The notes below the pieces were generated by a model. It did no database searches, was not told the DNA's origin, and saw only the letters and a list, made by a program, of their open reading frames with translations. A stretch of 64,000 nucleotides of DNA from Candidatus Moraniibacteriota bacterium (lineage in GTDB: Bacteria; Patescibacteriota; Minisyncoccia; Moranbacterales; UBA2206). Below, one piece after another: positions 3,575 to 23,198 of this stretch. The position numbers and the translations under genes were made by a program. The first letter of the stretch is position 1, and each line of letters starts with the position of its first letter. The stretch lies in assembly GCA_037137555.1 (NCBI GenBank), contig JBAXKA010000001.1:1874-65873 (forward strand). Direction: 5' to 3'.

Positions 3575-4855
3575 TTATATTCTTTTTATATTCGCACCCA
3601 ATTTTTGCAACCGTTCTTCAATTTTTTCATAACCTCTATCAACTTGATAAATTTCTTTGATGGTTGTTTTCCCCTCAGCAATCAGTGCCGCAATAATCAG
3701 TGTTGCGCCAGCACGCAAATCAAAACTAGTAATTATTTTACCTTTTAATTTTGCTGGGCCACTAATCAGCACTCTGTGTGGATCCAAAATTTTTGCCTTG
3801 GCTCCCATTTTTTTCAACTCGCTGATATAATTAAAGCGGCTTTCATATAGCGAGTCATGAATTAGCGTTTCTCCTTCAGCTTGTGTCGCAAGCACACCGA
3901 AAGGCGCTTGCACATCTGATGGAACACCAGGATAAGTTCTCGTATCAATCTTAAAAACAGCTTTTATTTTTTTAGCTGGAATAACTTCGATACTATTTTT
4001 TTCAATTTTAAAATCTGCTCCAAATTCACGCAATTTTTCTAGAACTAAAGCTAAATGTTCCTCTTTGGCGTTTTTAATTTTAATTGCGCTTCCAGTTGTT
4101 ACAGCGAGAATAAGAAAAGTAGCCGCTTCATTAGCATCGGGAATAATAGTATGCGTTGCTTTGTGCATTTTTTTTGTACCAATAATTTCCAGGCTATGCG
4201 TTCCCAGTCCCTTTATTTTTGCACCAAGGGAAATCAAAAACTTTCCTAAATCTTCCACATGCGGTTCGCAAGCACAAGCTTTAATGGTTGTTTTTCCTTC
4301 AAGTGAAGACGCCAATATCATCGCATTCTCCGTAGCCGTTACAGACATTTCTCCCAAAGTAATCCTAGCTGATTTTCTTTTTTGCGCATTAATAACATAG
4401 CCACATTCGTTTTGCAAAATATCCACACCCATCTTACGCAATGCTTCAAAATGTGTGCCAAGTGGACGTGCACCAATCACACAACCACCGGGTCGATAAA
4501 ATTTAAATTTATCAAAACGCGCACTCAAAGCACCCAAAAGTAAAATCGAGGAACGCAACTTTTTTACAGTTTCGGTGTCTATTTTTGCTGGATCAATTTT
4601 TTCATTTTTAATACTAATTTTTCTTTTTCCCAACCATTTGATTTCCGCACCCATGCTAGTCAATATTTCCAACATGCGATAAACATCCTCAATGAGCGGA
4701 ATATTGGAAATAATACATTCCTCTTTTGTCAATAATGTCGCCGCTAAAATTGGGGTTGTCGCATTTTTGGATCCACGCACCTCAATTTCTCCTTGCAATT
4801 TTTTTCCACCAACAATTTCAAATGTTTCCATAATTTTAAGTTTAAAAAAGGCCAC
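3575..4855 (-). CDS. murA: UDP-N-acetylglucosamine 1-carboxyvinyltransferase MurA
   Basis: EIVGGKKLQGEIEVRGSKNA at the N-terminus, about 420 aa and the EPSP-synthase fold pattern. The true start may be the internal Met at 4831 (METFEIVGG). Confidence 0.9.
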   Translation of the reverse strand: MAFFKLKIMETFEIVGGKKLQGEIEVRGSKNATTPILAATLLTKEECIISNIPLIEDVYRMLEILTSMGAEIKWLGKRKISIKNEKIDPAKIDTETVKKLRSSILLLGALSARFDKFKFYRPGGCVIGARPLGTHFEALRKMGVDILQNECGYVINAQKRKSARITLGEMSVTATENAMILASSLEGKTTIKACACEPHVEDLGKFLISLGAKIKGLGTHSLEIIGTKKMHKATHTIIPDANEAATFLILAVTTGSAIKIKNAKEEHLALVLEKLREFGADFKIEKNSIEVIPAKKIKAVFKIDTRTYPGVPSDVQAPFGVLATQAEGETLIHDSLYESRFNYISELKKMGAKAKILDPHRVLISGPAKLKGKIITSFDLRAGATLIIAALIAEGKTTIKEIYQVDRGYEKIEERLQKLGANIKRI

Positions 4856-16118: not shown

Positions 16119-17123
16119 TTAATCCGCTATTAAATTCTTAATAATTTTCACCATAATTTCTTTTTCTTTTGGATCACTTTCTGCGACAAGAAGCGCGAGC
16201 GCCGTGAGAGCATTATCATTAATCTTTCTCTCACCGCTCATACGATAGAGATAATCCGACTTGTCTAGAAAATATACGAACAAAAATGCACCTGAGCGTT
16301 TATTGCCATCAGAAAATGGATGGTCTTTGATCGTGAAATATAAGAGATGTGCCGCTCGATCTTCGATTGTTGGATAGAGTTCTTTTTTGCCAAAAGTTTG
16401 ATAAAGTCCCTTGACAATTCCCTCAAAACTCCCGCCTCTTGCTTGCCCAAATAAATCGCTAGCTTCTTTTTTATTAACTAGCTCTTTTTTCAATTCCAAA
16501 ATTACTTGCAAGCATTTTTTATAGGATAGCACAAATTTAGTTTTTCCGCCCCTCATTTCTTTCAAACTCCCTTTGTCATATTGTTCGAGCATTGTCAATG
16601 TTTTAGCATAAGCAGAAAGTAAATTCAAAATCTCACCAGATTGTCCTGCCAGCAATTCTTTTTTTGACTTTTTTTGCAAAAAATCAATGGTCATTTTTAG
16701 TTCATTGAATTTTTCTTGTGCTTCCATGAGGCGTTTTTCATTAATGACATAGCCTTGTAGCAAATATTTTCTTAAAACATTTGTCGCCCATTTTCTAAAA
16801 TGAATAGCTCTTGCAGAATTTGTCCTGTAGCCCACCGCTAAGATAACATCCAAACCATAAAACATCACTGGTTTATCAGAATTTGCAATGTGCAAAAAAT
16901 GCACATTACTTTTTTCGTCTATTTCTTTGTCGGAAAAAATTGCTTTAATGTGCTTAGCAATGACAGATCTTTCTTTTCCAAACAAAGTTGCAATTTCTCT
17001 TTGTCTAAGCCAGATAGCCTCCTCTTTAAATTGCACTTCCAACTCAACCTCATTTTTCGTGGTTTTATAGATAATAATTTCACCTCTATTGAATTCGTCT
17101 TTTTTTATTGTAGTTTTTTTCAT
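16119..17123 (-). CDS. RhuM-family N-terminal domain fused to a Fic/Doc (Fido) domain protein
   Basis: N-terminus GEIIIYKTTKNEVELEVQFKEEAIWLRQREIATLFGKERSVIAKHIKAIF (RhuM-like). C-terminal Fic motif HPFSDGNKRSGAFL, i.e. HPFx[DE]GN[G>K]R. Confidence 0.7.
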   Translation of the reverse strand: MKKTTIKKDEFNRGEIIIYKTTKNEVELEVQFKEEAIWLRQREIATLFGKERSVIAKHIKAIFSDKEIDEKSNVHFLHIANSDKPVMFYGLDVILAVGYRTNSARAIHFRKWATNVLRKYLLQGYVINEKRLMEAQEKFNELKMTIDFLQKKSKKELLAGQSGEILNLLSAYAKTLTMLEQYDKGSLKEMRGGKTKFVLSYKKCLQVILELKKELVNKKEASDLFGQARGGSFEGIVKGLYQTFGKKELYPTIEDRAAHLLYFTIKDHPFSDGNKRSGAFLFVYFLDKSDYLYRMSGERKINDNALTALALLVAESDPKEKEIMVKIIKNLIAD

Positions 17124-18256: not shown

Positions 18257-18905
18257 TTTTTTCTCGCCATTTTTTTATTTCATTATGATTTCCGCTCATA
18301 AGCACTGCTGGCACTGGCCAATTATTAAATTCTTGCGGTTTGCTATATTGTGGATGTTCTTTGTAGTTTTTAATTTTATGGGATTCATTTTTAGCGCTTT
18401 CAGCATTTCCCAATACTCCAGGCAAAAGTCGTGCAACAGAATCAACAATAATTAACGCGGGAATTTCTCCGCCCGTAAGCACATAATCTCCAATAGAAAT
18501 TTCCTCATCAGCAATATTTTTTGCCACTCGCTCATCTACGCCTTCATAGCGTCCACAAATCAAAACCAAATTAGTATATTTTGCCAACCGCTCTGCTGTT
18601 CTTTGTGTATATTTTTTGCCCTTAGCTGAAAAAAGAATTATTCGTGTATTAGCTTTATTTTGTTTTTTAGTAATTATTTTTTTTATTTTCTCAACACAAG
18701 CATAAATCGGCTGAACTTGAAGCACCATTCCTGCTCCTCCGCCATATGGCGTATCATCAACCTTACCATTTTTATCGTCCGTATAATCTCGCAAATTATG
18801 CGTAAAAATTTCAATAAATTTATTTTTTTGAGCACGCCCAATAATTGATTCTTGCAAATAAGAATTTAAAATTTGAGGAAAAATTGTGATGATGTCGAAA
18901 CGCAT
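18243..18905 (-). CDS. trmD: tRNA (guanine37-N1)-methyltransferase TrmD
   Basis: MRFDIITIFPQIL start, SPOUT knot motifs (LICGRYEGVDERV, YVLTGGEIPALIIVDSVARLLPGVLGN). Confidence 0.9.
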   Translation of the reverse strand: MRFDIITIFPQILNSYLQESIIGRAQKNKFIEIFTHNLRDYTDDKNGKVDDTPYGGGAGMVLQVQPIYACVEKIKKIITKKQNKANTRIILFSAKGKKYTQRTAERLAKYTNLVLICGRYEGVDERVAKNIADEEISIGDYVLTGGEIPALIIVDSVARLLPGVLGNAESAKNESHKIKNYKEHPQYSKPQEFNNWPVPAVLMSGNHNEIKKWREKNDKI

Positions 18906-18925
18906 ATTTTTTGGTGATTATTTTC
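18875..18925. repeat. 51-bp direct repeat, copy 1 (contains the authentic trmD start codon and first 11 codons plus 7 bp upstream)
   Basis: GAGGAAAAATTGTGATGATGTCGAAACGCATATTTTTTGGTGATTATTTTC is identical to 21690-21740. Confidence 0.9.
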
Positions 18926-20000
18926 CAGATTTAGTTCGATTACAATTCTTACAAAGCATCTGGCAATTTTTTGAAATTGTTTTTCCGCCTTCGTGCCAAG
19001 GTGTGATATGATCAGCTTCCATTTCTTCTGTTTCAAAATGTTCTTTGCATTTTATGCAAATGCCTTTTTGTTTTTCATAAATTTCCCTTTTTTGTTTATC
19101 TGCAAAAGCACGGATATTTAAATATTTTTCATTTCTTGTCAGAACATAAGGATAAATTCCAGATTTTTTTGTTACATCTTCATCTTGCATTAGTTTTGTG
19201 ATTTCTTCTTCTAATTTTTCAAAATCAACTTCTTGATCTTTGAATCGATTGTATAAATTCCCAAAAGAAACGCCTTTCATTTCTTTGCGATAATTGGGAA
19301 AAACAGCTTTAATCCAATTTATTATGCTTTGAAAATAGAGCCACAACTCATTGGCGTTTGGCTTGTGCTGATTTTCTGCCATATACTGCTCAATGTTTTC
19401 ATCACTAATCCACGAAATAGCCGTTTCTAAATATTCTTGACGAATACTAGAACCATTTAAATAATCACTTCCAATACCATAGGCAGGGCAACCAGATTTA
19501 CTAAAATATCTTTTGGCATCAGTTAACCAAGTGCCAGTATAAATTGCATTTCGCAATTCTTGATCAGTTAATTTTTCACCAGCGATATTAATTGTTTTAA
19601 ACCAATCTAGTTTTTCCTTATCATTTCCCTCGCAAAAATAAACCATAAGTTTATAATTCAAAATTTGCTCTTGCTCTATGTCGGTAAGATTGTGAAAAGA
19701 TAAGTTATTTAGAAAAAAATTGCCTACCACATATTCGCAAATACTAATTGTGCGTTGTTGTCCGTCCAAAACTTCAAAAGTTCCATCTTCATTTTTCACC
19801 CAATACATTACATTTAATGGAAAACTTTTTTGCACAGTTTCAATCACTAAATCTCTTTGCTTATCCTTATACACAAATTCTCTTTGATATTTTGGACGGA
19901 TATTTAGTTTTCCACTATAGCCAACCACACCTTCTTCATCATTATTAGCATACGCATCAACAATTTCTCTGATTGCGATTTCTTGTAGTTTAATTTTCAT
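18918..20000 (-). CDS. DUF262 (ParB/GmrSD N-terminal-like, DGQQR motif) domain fused to a C-terminal HNH endonuclease domain
   Basis: LDGQQRTISI motif. C-terminus CIKCKEHFETEEMEADHITPWHEGGKTISKNCQMLCKNCNRTKSGK is an HNH/zinc-finger nuclease motif. Confidence 0.75.
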   Translation of the reverse strand: MKIKLQEIAIREIVDAYANNDEEGVVGYSGKLNIRPKYQREFVYKDKQRDLVIETVQKSFPLNVMYWVKNEDGTFEVLDGQQRTISICEYVVGNFFLNNLSFHNLTDIEQEQILNYKLMVYFCEGNDKEKLDWFKTINIAGEKLTDQELRNAIYTGTWLTDAKRYFSKSGCPAYGIGSDYLNGSSIRQEYLETAISWISDENIEQYMAENQHKPNANELWLYFQSIINWIKAVFPNYRKEMKGVSFGNLYNRFKDQEVDFEKLEEEITKLMQDEDVTKKSGIYPYVLTRNEKYLNIRAFADKQKREIYEKQKGICIKCKEHFETEEMEADHITPWHEGGKTISKNCQMLCKNCNRTKSGK

Positions 20001-20011
20001 AAATAGTATAA

Positions 20012-20299
20012 TTAAAAGTTATTTTTTCTAGCCAATTCTGGTAATTTTTCAAATTGATTATGTATCAACGCTTCTTTTTTTTCTCTTCTCCAACCTTGCA
20101 CTTGCTTTTCTCGATAAAATGCTTCATCAATTCTAGCATATTCTTCAAAATAAACTAATTTAACTGGCAATCTCTTTTTTGTGTGATTTGCACCTTTTCC
20201 TGATTGATGTTGAGCCAAACGAAATTCCAAATCTTTTGTACTTCCAGTGTAGTAACTACCATCAGCACATTCTAAAATATACATGTATCCTTTACTCAT
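20012..20299 (-). CDS. GIY-YIG nuclease family protein (short, about 95 aa)
   Basis: [31 protein letters not shown]...QGWRREKK. Start set at MSKGYMYIL (20299). The longer 151-aa ORF reads through the repeat array and is an artefact. Confidence 0.75.
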
Positions 20300-20640
20300 A
20301 CCCGTTGGTTGAGCTTGTCGAAACCAATACTTACTAATTCGCAGGTGTTGCCTTCGATAAGCATAGACATTGTGTGTTGCCTTCGACGGGTGTGTTGCCT
20401 TCGACGGGCTCAGGCAACGGGAACGCATCCGTTGGTTGAGCTTGTCGAAACCAACTGTCGAAACCAATCACCTACTCGTTGGTTGAGCTTGTCGAAACCA
20501 ACACTCACACCAATTCGCTGAGTGTTGCCTTCGATAAACTCAGGCAACGGAGAAGGGTGTTGCCTTCGACGGGCTCAGGCAACGGGAACGCATTGTTGGT
20601 TGAGCTTGTCGAAACCAACTATCGAAACCAACACCCACCT
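20300..20640. repeat. array of about 10 hairpin repeat units of two related types in alternating orientation
   Basis: Type A is CGTTGGTTGAGCTTGTCGAAACCAAC (4 near-perfect copies). Type B is GTGTTGCCTTCGACGGGCTCAGGCAACGG (2 full copies plus 3 partial or variant copies). Both share the architecture stem-TCGAC-nn-GCTC-stem, read on opposite strands. Confidence 0.8.
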
Positions 20641-21601
20641 AAATTTTCTTGTTTTTAATTAAAATTCTAAAATATGGACACTTTCCATTTATGCTTAAAT
20701 CTTTTTCATCATCACCTTTGCGAAATTTTATAATCTCAAACTGCTCCGGATTATATTTATCTAAAAAAGTAATCGGCACGCCCATCGTTCCGGCATAATC
20801 CATTGGGATATCTTTTGTCTTATTAATATTTATTGCATCATAATTATCATATTTTGGATAATCTTCTGGATTATATTGTTTGTATAAAATTAAATCTTCG
20901 TGTCGTTTATTTATTTCTAAGTTAGTGAACCAGACAACACCAGAAACTCTAATCATTCCATCCTTATGATCTCCAGCAGTTGCATAATCTTCATAATGCG
21001 TATTAATAAAATGTGCCGCCCCACCATTAAACCCATAGCCTAGCCATAATTTATCATCCTTGATCAATTTAAATATTTCTTTATATGTTATAGCATTTTG
21101 ATGTCCAATAATAATAAACTTCTTATCATACTCAACCAATTGTGCCACATATTCCCGAAACAAAGAAAAAGGCGGATTAGTCACCACGATATCAGCTTGC
21201 TTTAAAAGTTCAATACATTCAGGACTTCTGAAATCACCATTCTTTTTTAAATGCTTGATACCAATTTCTGAAATATCTGGCACTCGATTTTCATTTTTAT
21301 CGCCAATGTATTCCAAATAAATCGCTTTTTCAGAATTATTTTGACTGAACAAATCGACACTTTGATTTTTATAACAAGTTGTGATTAATTTTTTGAGTCC
21401 TAGAAATTCAAAATTATAGGAAAAATAATGAAAAAAATTGCTCACTCTTGGATCATCGCAATTGCAAAAAACTGTTTTGCCCTTGAAATGATTTTTATAA
21501 TGAGCTAACTCTCTAGTGATATCCGCAAGTTGTGTATAAAACTCATCATTTTTGGCTTTGTTGGCTTTATGTAAATTTTGATTGGAAGATTTTCCTGCCA
21601 T
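20639..21601 (-). CDS. N6-adenine DNA methyltransferase, EcoRI-methylase-like family
   Basis: NPPF motif IV (IVVTNPPFSLFREY). N-terminus DEFYTQLADITRELAHYKNHFKGKTVFCNCDDP and C-terminal PMDYAGTMGVPITFLDKYNPEQFEI recall the M.EcoRI family, recalled from memory rather than searched. Confidence 0.6.
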   Translation of the reverse strand: MAGKSSNQNLHKANKAKNDEFYTQLADITRELAHYKNHFKGKTVFCNCDDPRVSNFFHYFSYNFEFLGLKKLITTCYKNQSVDLFSQNNSEKAIYLEYIGDKNENRVPDISEIGIKHLKKNGDFRSPECIELLKQADIVVTNPPFSLFREYVAQLVEYDKKFIIIGHQNAITYKEIFKLIKDDKLWLGYGFNGGAAHFINTHYEDYATAGDHKDGMIRVSGVVWFTNLEINKRHEDLILYKQYNPEDYPKYDNYDAININKTKDIPMDYAGTMGVPITFLDKYNPEQFEIIKFRKGDDEKDLSINGKCPYFRILIKNKKI

Positions 21602-21689
21602 AAAATTGAATAAATTGCTTAATTATTTTCAGCATATCTTTTTTTTATTTTGTGCCGTATTTCTATTATACCAAAACAAATCAAATCTC

Positions 21690-21740
21690 GAGGAAAAATT
21701 GTGATGATGTCGAAACGCATATTTTTTGGTGATTATTTTC
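21690..21740. repeat. 51-bp direct repeat, copy 2 (a dead trmD 5' fragment: ATG then 10 matching codons, then divergence)
   Basis: Identical to 18875-18925. Overlaps the stop codon of the downstream ATPase gene. Confidence 0.9.
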
Positions 21741-23034
21741 TTAAAAACTCCTCAAAAAAGTTTTTTATTTCAATCTTTCCTCCTTCTACCTTTATCTCTT
21801 CCGAATAACCCATCGTAATAAGCTGAGCTTTTTTAAGTTTAAATTTTTTCATCGCTTCTTTCAATCCAGCGATTTCTCTCTCTCTGTTTCCCTCATTCAA
21901 CTCCCAACAAGCATTTATTGCTTTTTCAATTTTAACGCCTTTTCGCAAAAGAAAATCTATTTCATTTTTTCCTTTCCAATAAAAAATATCTTCGCCTTTT
22001 CGACGATATTCTAGAAAAACCATATTTTCAAAAATACGCCCCAAATTTTCACTGAATCGAAAAGAAACTGCTCGATAAATTCCCAAATCAATAACATACA
22101 CTTTCTCCGGATTAGCTTTTTGCTTCAAATAAGAATAGTCAAATAAATTTATTCCTTGAGTTAAAAAAACATCCTGAGCGTAAGTAAAAAATTTATTCGC
22201 CGTAGGTTGAGAAATAGCCAGAGTTTTTTCCGCCCGATAACCGGAAAAGCTAGTAGCAATACTAGTTACTAGGTTTATATAATACTCCTTAATCTTTTTA
22301 GTATCTCGCACATCATATCTCTGCACAATATCTTTTTCGATAATAGAAGAATAATAATCTTTTAAGAGTTGTAATTTATCTTGAACTTTCGAACTCAGAA
22401 CCACGCGTGGAAAACCACCATACCGCAAATATTCCATAAACTGATTTTTCAATGCCGGCAGTTCCCTTCCGCCAGAAAAATTAATTAGCTTTTGTTTATT
22501 TTTAAAAAGCAGAAACTCCCAAAAACTCAAAGGAAATATTTCATTAGTATAAATTCTTCCCGTAAGTGCTGTACCATATTCCTTGGAAAGTAACTTGGAG
22601 GACGAACCAGTTATATAGAATTTTATTCGTTCTTCCCGATCATGGAGACCACGAACAAATTTTTCCCATCCGTCTATATACTGAACTTCATCAAGCACAA
22701 TTAAAATTTTTCCTTCGGGACTGAATTTTTCCAAATAAGCATCCAGCAATTGAGCGAGAAACTCCAATTTCAGTTGTGGTGCGAAGGCTGGCTCTTCAAA
22801 ATTGATATAGAGAGTATTCTCCTTGGGAAGTCCCTGCTCAACAGCTTTTTTTAAAACCTGAAGTAAAATAGTAGATTTTCCTGATCGCCTAATTCCAGAA
22901 ACTATTGAAACTTCTTTGATATTCTTTTGTCGCAACAATTCTTTCACATAGCCAACCCGCTCTATGCCTGTTTCACGCACACCACCCCACAAATTCCAAT
23001 AAGCCAGAATTTCAATGATTTGCACTTTATTCAT
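21733..23034 (-). CDS. AAA ATPase (AAA_14/DUF4143-like, 'ATP-binding protein' family), copy 1 of 3
   Basis: Walker A GIRRSGKST, Walker B ILIVLDEVQY. Paralogous to 36581-37891 and, more distantly, 35226-36365. Confidence 0.75.
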   Translation of the reverse strand: MNKVQIIEILAYWNLWGGVRETGIERVGYVKELLRQKNIKEVSIVSGIRRSGKSTILLQVLKKAVEQGLPKENTLYINFEEPAFAPQLKLEFLAQLLDAYLEKFSPEGKILIVLDEVQYIDGWEKFVRGLHDREERIKFYITGSSSKLLSKEYGTALTGRIYTNEIFPLSFWEFLLFKNKQKLINFSGGRELPALKNQFMEYLRYGGFPRVVLSSKVQDKLQLLKDYYSSIIEKDIVQRYDVRDTKKIKEYYINLVTSIATSFSGYRAEKTLAISQPTANKFFTYAQDVFLTQGINLFDYSYLKQKANPEKVYVIDLGIYRAVSFRFSENLGRIFENMVFLEYRRKGEDIFYWKGKNEIDFLLRKGVKIEKAINACWELNEGNREREIAGLKEAMKKFKLKKAQLITMGYSEEIKVEGGKIEIKNFFEEFLRK

Positions 23035-23167
23035 ACATAAGTATAGTTTAGCAATTTATATCAAAATACTAAAGTATATTTTAGTATTTGTCAAGCGATT
23101 TAATTCGCCCTTTATTTTCAAAAACAACATTTATTCATGCTACATATTCATTATACCAAAACAAATC

Positions 23168-23198
23168 AAAAAAGGCTAACTTTCGTCAGCCTTTTTTA
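23168..23198 (-). terminator. rho-independent terminator after the KH-domain gene
   Basis: Hairpin GGCTGACGAAAGTTAGCC on the minus strand, flanked by A and T runs. Confidence 0.5.

What the first reader, a model, noticed from the sequence alone, without database searches (positions are those of the whole stretch)
18918..21601. DUF262-HNH nuclease paired with an EcoRI-family adenine methyltransferase: unusual R-M-like pairing
DUF262 (DGQQR) plus HNH/DUF1524 architectures are normally GmrSD-type, modification-dependent type IV enzymes that carry no cognate methyltransferase. Here the DUF262-HNH gene shares an island and a strand with an M.EcoRI-like N6A methyltransferase (NPPF motif), with a small GIY-YIG nuclease in between. 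Either the methyltransferase is an orphan or anti-restriction methylase riding the same element, or this DUF262-HNH protein is a modification-blocked restriction enzyme protected by the methyltransferase. The second option would be a non-canonical type II-like system.
Basis: partly seen in the sequence, partly recalled or inferred. Interest (0 to 1): 0.55.

Follow-up and report, generated by a model that had tools for sequence, protein, structure and literature searches.

The report
Mobile EcoRI-methylase / ParB-HNH restriction cassette
The DUF262-HNH nuclease and the EcoRI-like methyltransferase form a widespread, already catalogued two-gene restriction-modification cassette, inserted here as a 2.8-kb mobile unit, so the pairing is real and functional-looking but not unusual.

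Summary
On the minus strand lie an intact 320-aa EcoRI-family m6A methyltransferase (M, 20639-21601), a small GIY-YIG gene, and an intact 360-aa DUF262(ParB/Srx-like)+HNH nuclease (R, 18918-20000).

The pairing is the rule for this nuclease family. An EcoRI-family M lies next to R on the same strand in 77 of 80 genome loci and in 25 of 25 viral contigs. It lies upstream in all but one of them, often with a 4-bp overlap. The pair also sits on small plasmids and on a phage, and one M-R fusion protein exists.

PADLOC's REBASE-derived "Type II restriction enzyme" profile covers R end to end (E 6e-142).

New details found here:
- A 51-nt exact target duplication brackets the cassette, which landed in the start of trmD.
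- The GIY-YIG gene and its hairpin repeats are a secondary insertion, absent from all 80 other loci.
- M is 57% identical to M.EcoRI itself, and M.EcoRI nests inside the tree of R-linked methyltransferases. GAATTC is therefore the likeliest target, but this is unproven.
- R is 70-86% identical across bacterial and archaeal phyla and is more conserved than M.

The parts
18875..18925 (.). Direct repeat copy A (51 nt, exact). It covers the last two codons and the stop of R, a 12-nt spacer, and codons 1-10 of the functional trmD gene.
   Evidence: the repeat finder family D5. The pairwise alignment shows a 51-nt identical core.
18918..20000 (-). R: a 360-aa nuclease. It has an N-terminal ParB/Srx-like DUF262 domain with an invariant DGQQR motif, a helical middle region, and a C-terminal zinc-finger HNH domain (D330 H331 N345 N354; C315 C318 C346 C350).
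20012..20299 (-). Small GIY-YIG gene (95 aa from the ATG at 20299). It is a secondary insertion in the M-R spacer and not part of the conserved module.
   Evidence: Pfam GIY-YIG, E 3e-17. Sequence read. No homolog in any of the 80 related loci.
20304..20636 (.). Array of short hairpin repeats that came with the GIY-YIG insertion: four copies of GTTGGTTGAGCTTGTCGAAACCAAC and several copies of GTTGCCTTCGACGGGCTCAGGCAAC.
   Evidence: 0 matches expected by chance. The first 25-mer occurs exactly in 64 metagenome contigs.
20639..21601 (-). M: a 320-aa EcoRI-family N6-adenine DNA methyltransferase with an NPPF motif. It is 57% identical over its full length to M.EcoRI.
   Evidence: Pfam PF13651, 461 bits. 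PADLOC MTase_II PDLC03297. BLASTP against the methyltransferase next to 'type-2 restriction enzyme EcoRI' on an E. coli plasmid.
21665..21685 (-). Promoter-like 21-mer TTTGATTTGTTTTGGTATAAT (extended -10, TGGTATAAT) at the left end of the cassette, 64 nt upstream of the M start codon. A second exact copy lies at 23150-23170, upstream of the AAA_14 gene.
   Evidence: Function is inferred from the consensus only.
21690..21740 (.). Direct repeat copy B (51 nt, exact). It covers the end and stop of the AAA_14 gene, the spacer, and a remnant of the first 10 trmD codons (ATG at 21720, reading MRFDIITIFP before it diverges).

Best explanation
This is a two-gene, Type II-like restriction-modification cassette in the order M then R.

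Proposed mechanism (inferred, not shown): the EcoRI-family methyltransferase N6-methylates adenine in a short target, most likely GAATTC or a close AATT-core relative. The 360-aa nuclease cuts the same target when it is unmethylated. Its C-terminal zinc-finger HNH domain is the catalytic centre. The N-terminal ParB/Srx-like DUF262 domain, with its invariant DGQQR, is probably a nucleotide-binding switch or dimerisation/clamp module. The helical middle region probably reads the sequence.

Shown: the cassette is a discrete mobile unit. It was inserted 30 nt into trmD with a 51-nt duplication of the target, which regenerated an intact trmD downstream. A GIY-YIG gene with hairpin repeats later landed in the M-R spacer without damaging either gene.
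For: Linkage of M and R:
- An EcoRI-family M lies upstream of R on the same strand in 77/80 genome loci drawn from many bacterial and archaeal phyla.
- The three exceptions are contigs that end 0.8-2.3 kb upstream of R. Two of them (L005, L066) have RhuM or AbiJ genes inserted there; the third (L025) has only 765 bp upstream of R.
- All 25 viral-contig loci also carry M.
- The pair is on small plasmids of Staphylococcaceae, lactic acid bacteria, enterococci and actinobacteria, and on a Flavobacterium phage. The record annotation shows a 4-bp M/R overlap.
- One 688-aa protein fuses EcoRI_methylase + DUF262 + HNH.

Classification:
- PADLOC REase_II PDLC03418 covers R end to end (E 5.7e-142). MTase_II PDLC03297 covers M.
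- The REase_II profile scores highest for the 360-aa subfamily.

Both genes are intact:
- DGQQR, the D-H...N...N residues and four Cys are invariant across two subfamilies.
- M matches the whole Pfam profile.

Mobility:
- A 51-nt exact direct repeat brackets 2,815 bp and contains the trmD start.
- Comparable flanking repeats of 26-125 nt occur in about 10 other loci.

Target:
- M is 57% identical to M.EcoRI.
- The M.EcoRI clade nests inside the neighbour-joining tree of R-linked methyltransferases. Identity to M.EcoRI has a median of 52% and a maximum of 59%, against a median of 58% among the R-linked methyltransferases themselves.
- M.EcoRI keeps 90-93% of the 105 columns that are at least 90% conserved in R-linked methyltransferases.
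- GAATTC occurs 12 times in the window against 34.4 +/- 5.7 in dinucleotide shuffles. It is the most depleted 6-mer palindrome among those with at least 10 expected sites.
Against: - No biochemical data are available here, and no open-access paper describing this family as Type II was found.
- I could not name the REBASE prototype behind the PADLOC profile.
- GAATTC depletion across carriers (observed/expected 0.69 in hosts, 0.58 in viral loci) is only modestly below control contigs (0.81) and lies within general palindrome avoidance.
- Two stretches of M (residues about 78-120 and 190-236) differ strongly from M.EcoRI and could hold specificity determinants.
- The conserved DGQQR motif suggests NTP binding, which is not typical of Type II enzymes.
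- In this window the 638-bp GIY-YIG insertion separates R from M, so co-expression is not guaranteed.
Confidence: 0.8

Rival explanations
1. R is a GmrSD-like Type IV (modification-dependent) nuclease, and the methyltransferase is an unrelated orphan or anti-restriction enzyme that happens to ride the same element.
Against: There is no DUF1524 domain. M is adjacent on the same strand in 77/80 and 25/25 loci, often with overlap, and once fused. That linkage is not expected for chance co-travel. An m6A-dependent nuclease in an operon with an m6A methyltransferase would be self-destructive. The best PADLOC match is REase_II at 471 bits, against 17 bits for mREase_IV.
Confidence: 0.05
2. The cassette is mainly a selfish mobile element. 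The HNH nuclease serves chiefly to promote cassette spread or post-segregational killing (homing-like or addiction), and phage defence is secondary.
For: R is 70-86% identical across bacterial and archaeal phyla and is more conserved than M in 97% of locus pairs. Long target duplications flank the cassette here and in about 10 other loci. The cassette is present on plasmids, phages and viral contigs.
Against: This is compatible with, rather than an alternative to, a classical R-M mechanism. Insertion sites differ between loci, so there is no single homing site. No intron, intein or recombinase is consistently associated.
Confidence: 0.1
3. In this particular genome the system is decoupled or decaying. 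The GIY-YIG insertion silenced R, and M now acts as an orphan methyltransferase.
For: A 638-bp insertion with hairpin repeats that could terminate transcription lies between M and R. Most loci have a gap from -4 to about 160 bp.
Against: R keeps every invariant residue of the family and has no frameshift or stop. R starts 12 nt after the GIY-YIG stop on the same strand and can be co-transcribed with it. Fourteen other loci also tolerate genes inserted between M and R.
Confidence: 0.05

Closest known systems
EcoRI restriction-modification system (M.EcoRI + R.EcoRI, target GAATTC)
   Same: The methyltransferase is a close homolog: 57% identity over the full length and the same Pfam and PADLOC profiles. 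M.EcoRI nests among the methyltransferases linked to this nuclease family. Both are two-gene Type II modules carried on mobile DNA.
   Different: The nuclease is unrelated. R.EcoRI matches a different PADLOC REase_II profile (PDLC03551) and, from general knowledge, has a PD-(D/E)XK fold. The nuclease here is ParB/Srx-like DUF262 + HNH. Gene order is R then M in EcoRI plasmids and M then R here. Identity of the target sequence is inferred, not shown.
GmrSD / BrxU / SspE family (DUF262 + DUF1524, Type IV or phosphorothioate-sensing nucleases)
   Different: This protein is about 360 aa rather than about 560-730 aa. Its nuclease domain is a zinc-finger HNH (PF01844), not DUF1524. It has a conserved cognate methyltransferase, whereas those enzymes have none and attack modified DNA (PMC4619093, PMC12707154).
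HNH-type Type II restriction enzymes (KpnI, Hpy99I, PacI, SphI, NlaIII)
   Same: All use a beta-beta-alpha-metal (HNH) catalytic site with a Cys4 zinc structural element, and each is paired with a separate methyltransferase (review PMC4081073).
   Different: None of those is described with a ParB/Srx-like N-terminal domain. No sequence similarity beyond the HNH core was found in solved structures.
R-M gene insertions with long target duplication (Helicobacter pylori genome comparisons by Kobayashi and colleagues; cited from memory, not read here)
   Same: An R-M unit is flanked by direct repeats of tens of bases that duplicate the target (51 nt here; 26-125 nt in other loci).
   Different: The R-M family and the hosts differ. 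The mechanism of duplication is unknown in both cases.

Membership tests
Type II restriction-modification system | Separate, adjacent R and M genes that are inherited together | tested here: met
   M lies upstream of R on the same strand in 77/80 genome loci, and M accompanies R in 25/25 viral loci. The pair is also on plasmids and a phage with a 4-bp overlap.
Type II restriction-modification system | R matches a profile built from REBASE Type II restriction enzymes | tested here: met
   PADLOC REase_II PDLC03418: residues 1-360 against profile positions 1-372, E 5.7e-142. The named prototype could not be identified.
Type II restriction-modification system | R cleaves at or near a defined sequence and is blocked by the cognate methylation | not testable with these tools
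   This needs cloning, digestion and methylation-protection assays.
Type II restriction-modification system | Cleavage needs only a divalent metal, with no NTP requirement | not testable with these tools
   The invariant DGQQR of the ParB/Srx fold raises the possibility that NTP is bound.
EcoRI-family N6-adenine DNA methyltransferase (Pfam PF13651) | Full-length match to the family profile above the curated cut-off, plus the NPPF catalytic motif | tested here: met
   461 bits against a cut-off of 26.4, covering profile positions 1-344 of 345. NPPF is visible in the translation. The protein is 57% identical to M.EcoRI.
EcoRI-family N6-adenine DNA methyltransferase (Pfam PF13651) | Methylates GAATTC | tested here: inconclusive
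   Tree position and conserved-column retention support it. GAATTC observed/expected is 0.45 in the window, but only 0.69 in other hosts against 0.81 in controls.
GmrSD-type Type IV restriction enzyme | N-terminal DUF262 domain with DGQQR | tested here: met
   Pfam GmrSD_N, E 2e-19. DGQQR is invariant.
GmrSD-type Type IV restriction enzyme | C-terminal DUF1524 nuclease domain | tested here: not met
   No PF07510 hit at E<=0.01. The domain is HNH PF01844/HNH_5 with CxxC...CxxxC.
GmrSD-type Type IV restriction enzyme | Stand-alone enzyme with no cognate methyltransferase that acts on modified DNA | tested here: not met
   A conserved upstream methyltransferase is present. Substrate preference was not testable.

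The most novel reading that the evidence does not exclude
The DUF262-HNH family is a nucleotide-gated restriction enzyme that recognises the EcoRI site, or an AATT-core relative. One methyltransferase clade (M.EcoRI and its kin) would then serve two structurally unrelated nucleases. The ParB/Srx-HNH version would be the far more widespread one, moving between bacteria, archaea and phages as a self-contained cassette that inserts with long target duplications. That would make it a modification-blocked member of a domain architecture that the literature treats as modification-dependent.
Probability: 0.3. Interest if true: 0.6.

Novelty: new member of a known kind. Interest (0 to 1): 0.35.

Why it matters
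DUF262 nucleases are usually read as Type IV, modification-dependent enzymes. This case shows that the 360-aa DUF262+HNH form is instead the R half of a classical-looking R-M pair, so automatic 'GmrSD' labels on such genes are misleading.

The family is large: 522 clusters at 50% identity with E<=1e-30. It is unusually conserved across domains of life. No solved structure of a close relative was found, and no open-access paper describing it was found.

If its target is GAATTC, it would be a clean natural example of nuclease replacement around a fixed methyltransferase.

For this genome the practical message is ordinary. It carries one more mobile R-M cassette, inserted next to trmD.

Tried and rejected
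1. Assigning the target by palindrome avoidance.
- ACGT is almost absent from the window (2 observed against 72 expected).
- The depletion is not shared by many carriers of near-identical R genes, so it was attributed to something else.
- Summed 4-, 5- and 6-mer scans over 80 loci gave no single standout motif.
- GAATTC depletion in carriers is only modestly stronger than in control contigs.

2. Naming the characterised prototype.
- Searches for DUF262 with HNH, EcoRI family, GAATTC or Type II, and reading of the GmrSD, His-Me finger, ParB-fold and Type II review papers, found no description of this family.

3. Solved structures.
- Sequence searches hit only HNH fragments, and nothing was found for M.
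- Foldseek found no hit with E<=0.001.

4. GIY-YIG as a third component.
- Rejected, because it is absent from all 80 related loci.

5. The AAA_14/DUF4143 ATPase as part of the system.
- Rejected. It is absent from the related loci and lies outside the 51-nt duplication.

6. Looking for an insertion-free relative of the trmD locus.
- Exact-protein look-up returned only another assembly of the same sample.
Full report
**What is there**

The minus strand between 18.2 and 23.0 kb carries these genes in transcription order:
- an AAA_14/DUF4143 ATPase (23034-21733);
- a 320-aa methyltransferase M (21601-20639);
- a small GIY-YIG gene;
- a 360-aa nuclease R (20000-18918);
- trmD (18905-18243).

- R has GmrSD_N/DUF262 at residues 34-154 (E 2e-19) and HNH PF01844 at residues 315-358 (E 2e-11).
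- M matches EcoRI_methylase PF13651 over the whole profile (461 bits) and contains NPPF.
- The middle gene is GIY-YIG (E 3e-17).

The exact R protein is on record from a Candidatus Moraniibacteriota metagenome-assembled genome.

**Is the pairing meaningful?**

Yes. I fetched 80 genome loci that encode relatives of R. They are 69-86% identical to it. They come from Patescibacteria, Bacteroidota, Proteobacteria, Clostridia, Chloroflexota, Melainabacteria, Verrucomicrobiota, Elusimicrobiota and several archaeal lineages.
- An EcoRI-family methyltransferase lies just upstream of R on the same strand in 77 of the 80.
- The three exceptions are contigs that end 0.8-2.3 kb upstream of R. In two of them (L005, L066) RhuM or AbiJ genes occupy that space; the third (L025) has only 765 bp upstream.
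- All 25 viral-contig loci with R also carry M.
- The pair is on small plasmids of Mammaliicoccus, Macrococcoides, lactobacilli, Pediococcus, Leuconostoc, Enterococcus, Gordonia and others.
- Record annotation shows a 4-bp overlap of M and R on a Mammaliicoccus sciuri plasmid and on Flavobacterium phage vB_FspS_laban6-1.
- One 688-aa protein fuses EcoRI_methylase, DUF262 and HNH. A frameshift artefact cannot be excluded for that one.

**Is the family already known?**

PADLOC's REase_II profile PDLC03418 aligns with R from residue 1 to 360 (E 5.7e-142), and MTase_II PDLC03297 covers M. From my own knowledge, those profiles descend from REBASE reference enzymes.

The profile scores 471-472 bits for the 360-aa subfamily. 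It scores 283 bits for a second, 386-391-aa subfamily found in Moraxella, Haemophilus, Acinetobacter, Bartonella and the Flavobacterium phage. Whatever enzyme seeded the profile is therefore close to the window's R.

I conclude that this is a catalogued Type II-like R-M family.

I could not find its name, or any open-access paper treating a DUF262-HNH protein as a Type II enzyme. The literature I read discusses DUF262 only in Type IV or phosphorothioate-sensing contexts (PMC4619093, PMC12707154).

**Anatomy of R**

Two subfamilies about 40% identical to each other were aligned. The following are invariant:
- P36, Q39 and R40;
- the D79-G-Q-Q-R83 motif of the ParB/Srx fold;
- the HNH residues D330, H331, N345 and N354;
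- four cysteines (C315, C318, C346, C350) that fit a structural zinc site.

An AlphaFold2 model (mean pLDDT 80, pTM 0.68) shows three parts: a mixed alpha/beta N-terminal domain, a helical middle region (about 190-290), and a C-terminal beta-beta-alpha unit.

The fold composition is therefore GmrSD-like at the N-terminus and classical HNH at the C-terminus, with no close solved relative.

The mechanism is inferred, not shown. HNH cuts. The ParB/Srx domain may bind a nucleotide and act as a switch or clamp. The middle region probably reads the sequence.

**What does it recognise?**

M is 57% identical over 320 residues to the methyltransferase encoded next to 'type-2 restriction enzyme EcoRI' on E. 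coli plasmids.
- In a neighbour-joining tree of 74 methyltransferases, the three that sit next to EcoRI-fold nucleases nest inside the radiation of methyltransferases linked to DUF262-HNH nucleases.
- R-linked methyltransferases are 58% identical to each other (median) and 52% identical to M.EcoRI (median; maximum 59%).
- M.EcoRI keeps 90-93% of the 105 columns that are at least 90% conserved among R-linked methyltransferases. The methyltransferases of the second subfamily and of a Campylobacter coli plasmid keep 81-84%.
- The R proteins served by these diverse methyltransferases are themselves 74% identical (median). One shared specificity is therefore likely, and GAATTC is the obvious candidate.

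Evidence from site counts is weaker.
- In the window, GAATTC occurs 12 times against 34.4 +/- 5.7 in dinucleotide shuffles. It is the most depleted 6-mer palindrome among those with at least 10 expected sites.
- Across carriers the signal is weak: observed/expected is 0.69 in host loci and 0.58 in viral loci, against 0.81 in unrelated control contigs. This lies within general palindrome avoidance.
- Two stretches of M differ strongly from M.EcoRI.

I put GAATTC at roughly 40%, and an AATT-core target in general somewhat higher.

**The cassette is a mobile insertion**

A 51-nt exact direct repeat lies at 18875-18925 and at 21690-21740, 2,815 bp apart. It consists of:
- the last codons and the stop of the upstream gene;
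- a 12-nt spacer;
- the first ten codons of trmD.

The copy upstream of M opens a 27-codon remnant reading MRFDIITIFP before it diverges. The copy after R starts the real trmD.

The ancestral arrangement was therefore AAA_14, 12 nt, then trmD. M-R landed 30 nt into trmD with duplication of the target. The first 8 nt of the repeat (GAAAATAA) also fit the conserved C-terminus of R (…SGK-stop), so that junction may reflect microhomology.

A scan of the other loci found direct repeats of 26-125 nt flanking M-R in about 10 of them. The downstream copy often starts 17-27 nt after the R stop.

Right after the upstream repeat copy lies a 21-mer with an extended -10 box (TGGTATAAT). It recurs exactly upstream of the AAA_14 gene.

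**The GIY-YIG gene**

It is not part of the system.
- No related locus has a homolog.
- Most loci have an M-R gap from -4 to about 160 bp.
- In the window, the 638-bp spacer holds the 95-aa GIY-YIG gene and an array of two hairpin repeat types.
- One hairpin 25-mer occurs exactly in 64 metagenome contigs. Only three of these have a detectable GIY-YIG homolog next to it.

Fourteen other loci also have foreign genes between M and R. These include RhuM, KilA/DinD-like, Fic, IS200-like, AIPR-like, an ATPase and a NYN-like protein. The spacer therefore seems to tolerate or attract insertions.

**Oddities worth recording**

- R is more conserved than M in 97% of locus pairs, and it stays at 70-86% identity across bacteria and archaea. 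From general knowledge, restriction enzymes normally diverge faster than their methyltransferases.
- The family is large: 522 clusters at 50% identity with E<=1e-30.

**Verdict**

- This is a new member of a known, catalogued kind of R-M system, with a clear insertion footprint.
- The open points are the target sequence, whether a nucleotide is required, and the reason for the extreme conservation of R. These need a REBASE look-up and simple biochemistry.

Noticed in passing
whole window; the two sites are at 4466 and 53498: ACGT is almost absent: 2 sites against about 72 expected from a Markov model. It is the most extreme k-mer bias in the window. Several other CPR, DPANN and Clostridia contigs also have about 0 ACGT, while other carriers of the same R-M have normal counts. 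It therefore probably reflects a different, ACGT-specific system or a lineage trait.
   Followed up: partly
window 18875-18925 and 21690-21740: A 51-nt exact direct repeat brackets the R-M cassette and duplicates the trmD start. This is an insertion with a long target duplication. Similar flanking repeats (26-125 nt) occur in L004, L024, L027, L047, L057, L068, L081, L099, L102 and L107.
   Followed up: yes
window 20304-20636: An array of two short hairpin repeat types lies next to the GIY-YIG gene. The 25-mer GTTGGTTGAGCTTGTCGAAACCAAC occurs exactly in 64 metagenome contigs (L113-L176), mostly without a detectable GIY-YIG homolog. It looks like a widespread REP/MITE-like element.
   Followed up: partly
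window 21665-21685 and 23150-23170 (minus strand): The identical 21-mer TTTGATTTGTTTTGGTATAAT (extended -10-like) lies upstream of both M and the AAA_14 ATPase gene. It may be a shared promoter, or a footprint of a second insertion event around the ATPase gene.
   Followed up: no
L005, L006, L007, L010, L014, L019, L026, L032, L036, L048, L053, L066, L075 (between M and R): The M-R spacer repeatedly holds unrelated accessory or defence-type genes: RhuM, KilA/DinD-like, Fic, AbiJ, AIPR-like, an ATPase, a NYN-like protein and an IS200-like transposase. This suggests an insertion hotspot inside the operon.
   Followed up: partly
window 16119-17123 (minus strand) and 21733-23034 (minus strand): Two further defence-candidate genes flank the region. 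One is a RhuM-Fic/DOC fusion protein (PADLOC PDC-S23, E 2e-116). The other is an AAA_14/DUF4143 ATPase (PADLOC PDC-S01, E 3e-106). Neither is linked to the R-M module in other genomes.
   Followed up: partly
L085 (Moraxella osloensis plasmid), L086 (Flavobacterium phage vB_FspS_laban6-1), P0121-P0240: A second subfamily of the nuclease (386-391 aa, about 40% identical to the window protein) also has an upstream EcoRI-family methyltransferase, here of about 400 aa. It is likewise about 75% identical across very different hosts (Moraxella, Bartonella, Haemophilus, Acinetobacter, Bacteroidota, Cloacimonadota). It may have a different specificity.
   Followed up: partly
P0274: A 688-aa protein fuses the EcoRI_methylase, DUF262 and HNH domains. 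It is either a natural M-R fusion or a frameshift artefact at the 4-bp gene overlap.
   Followed up: no
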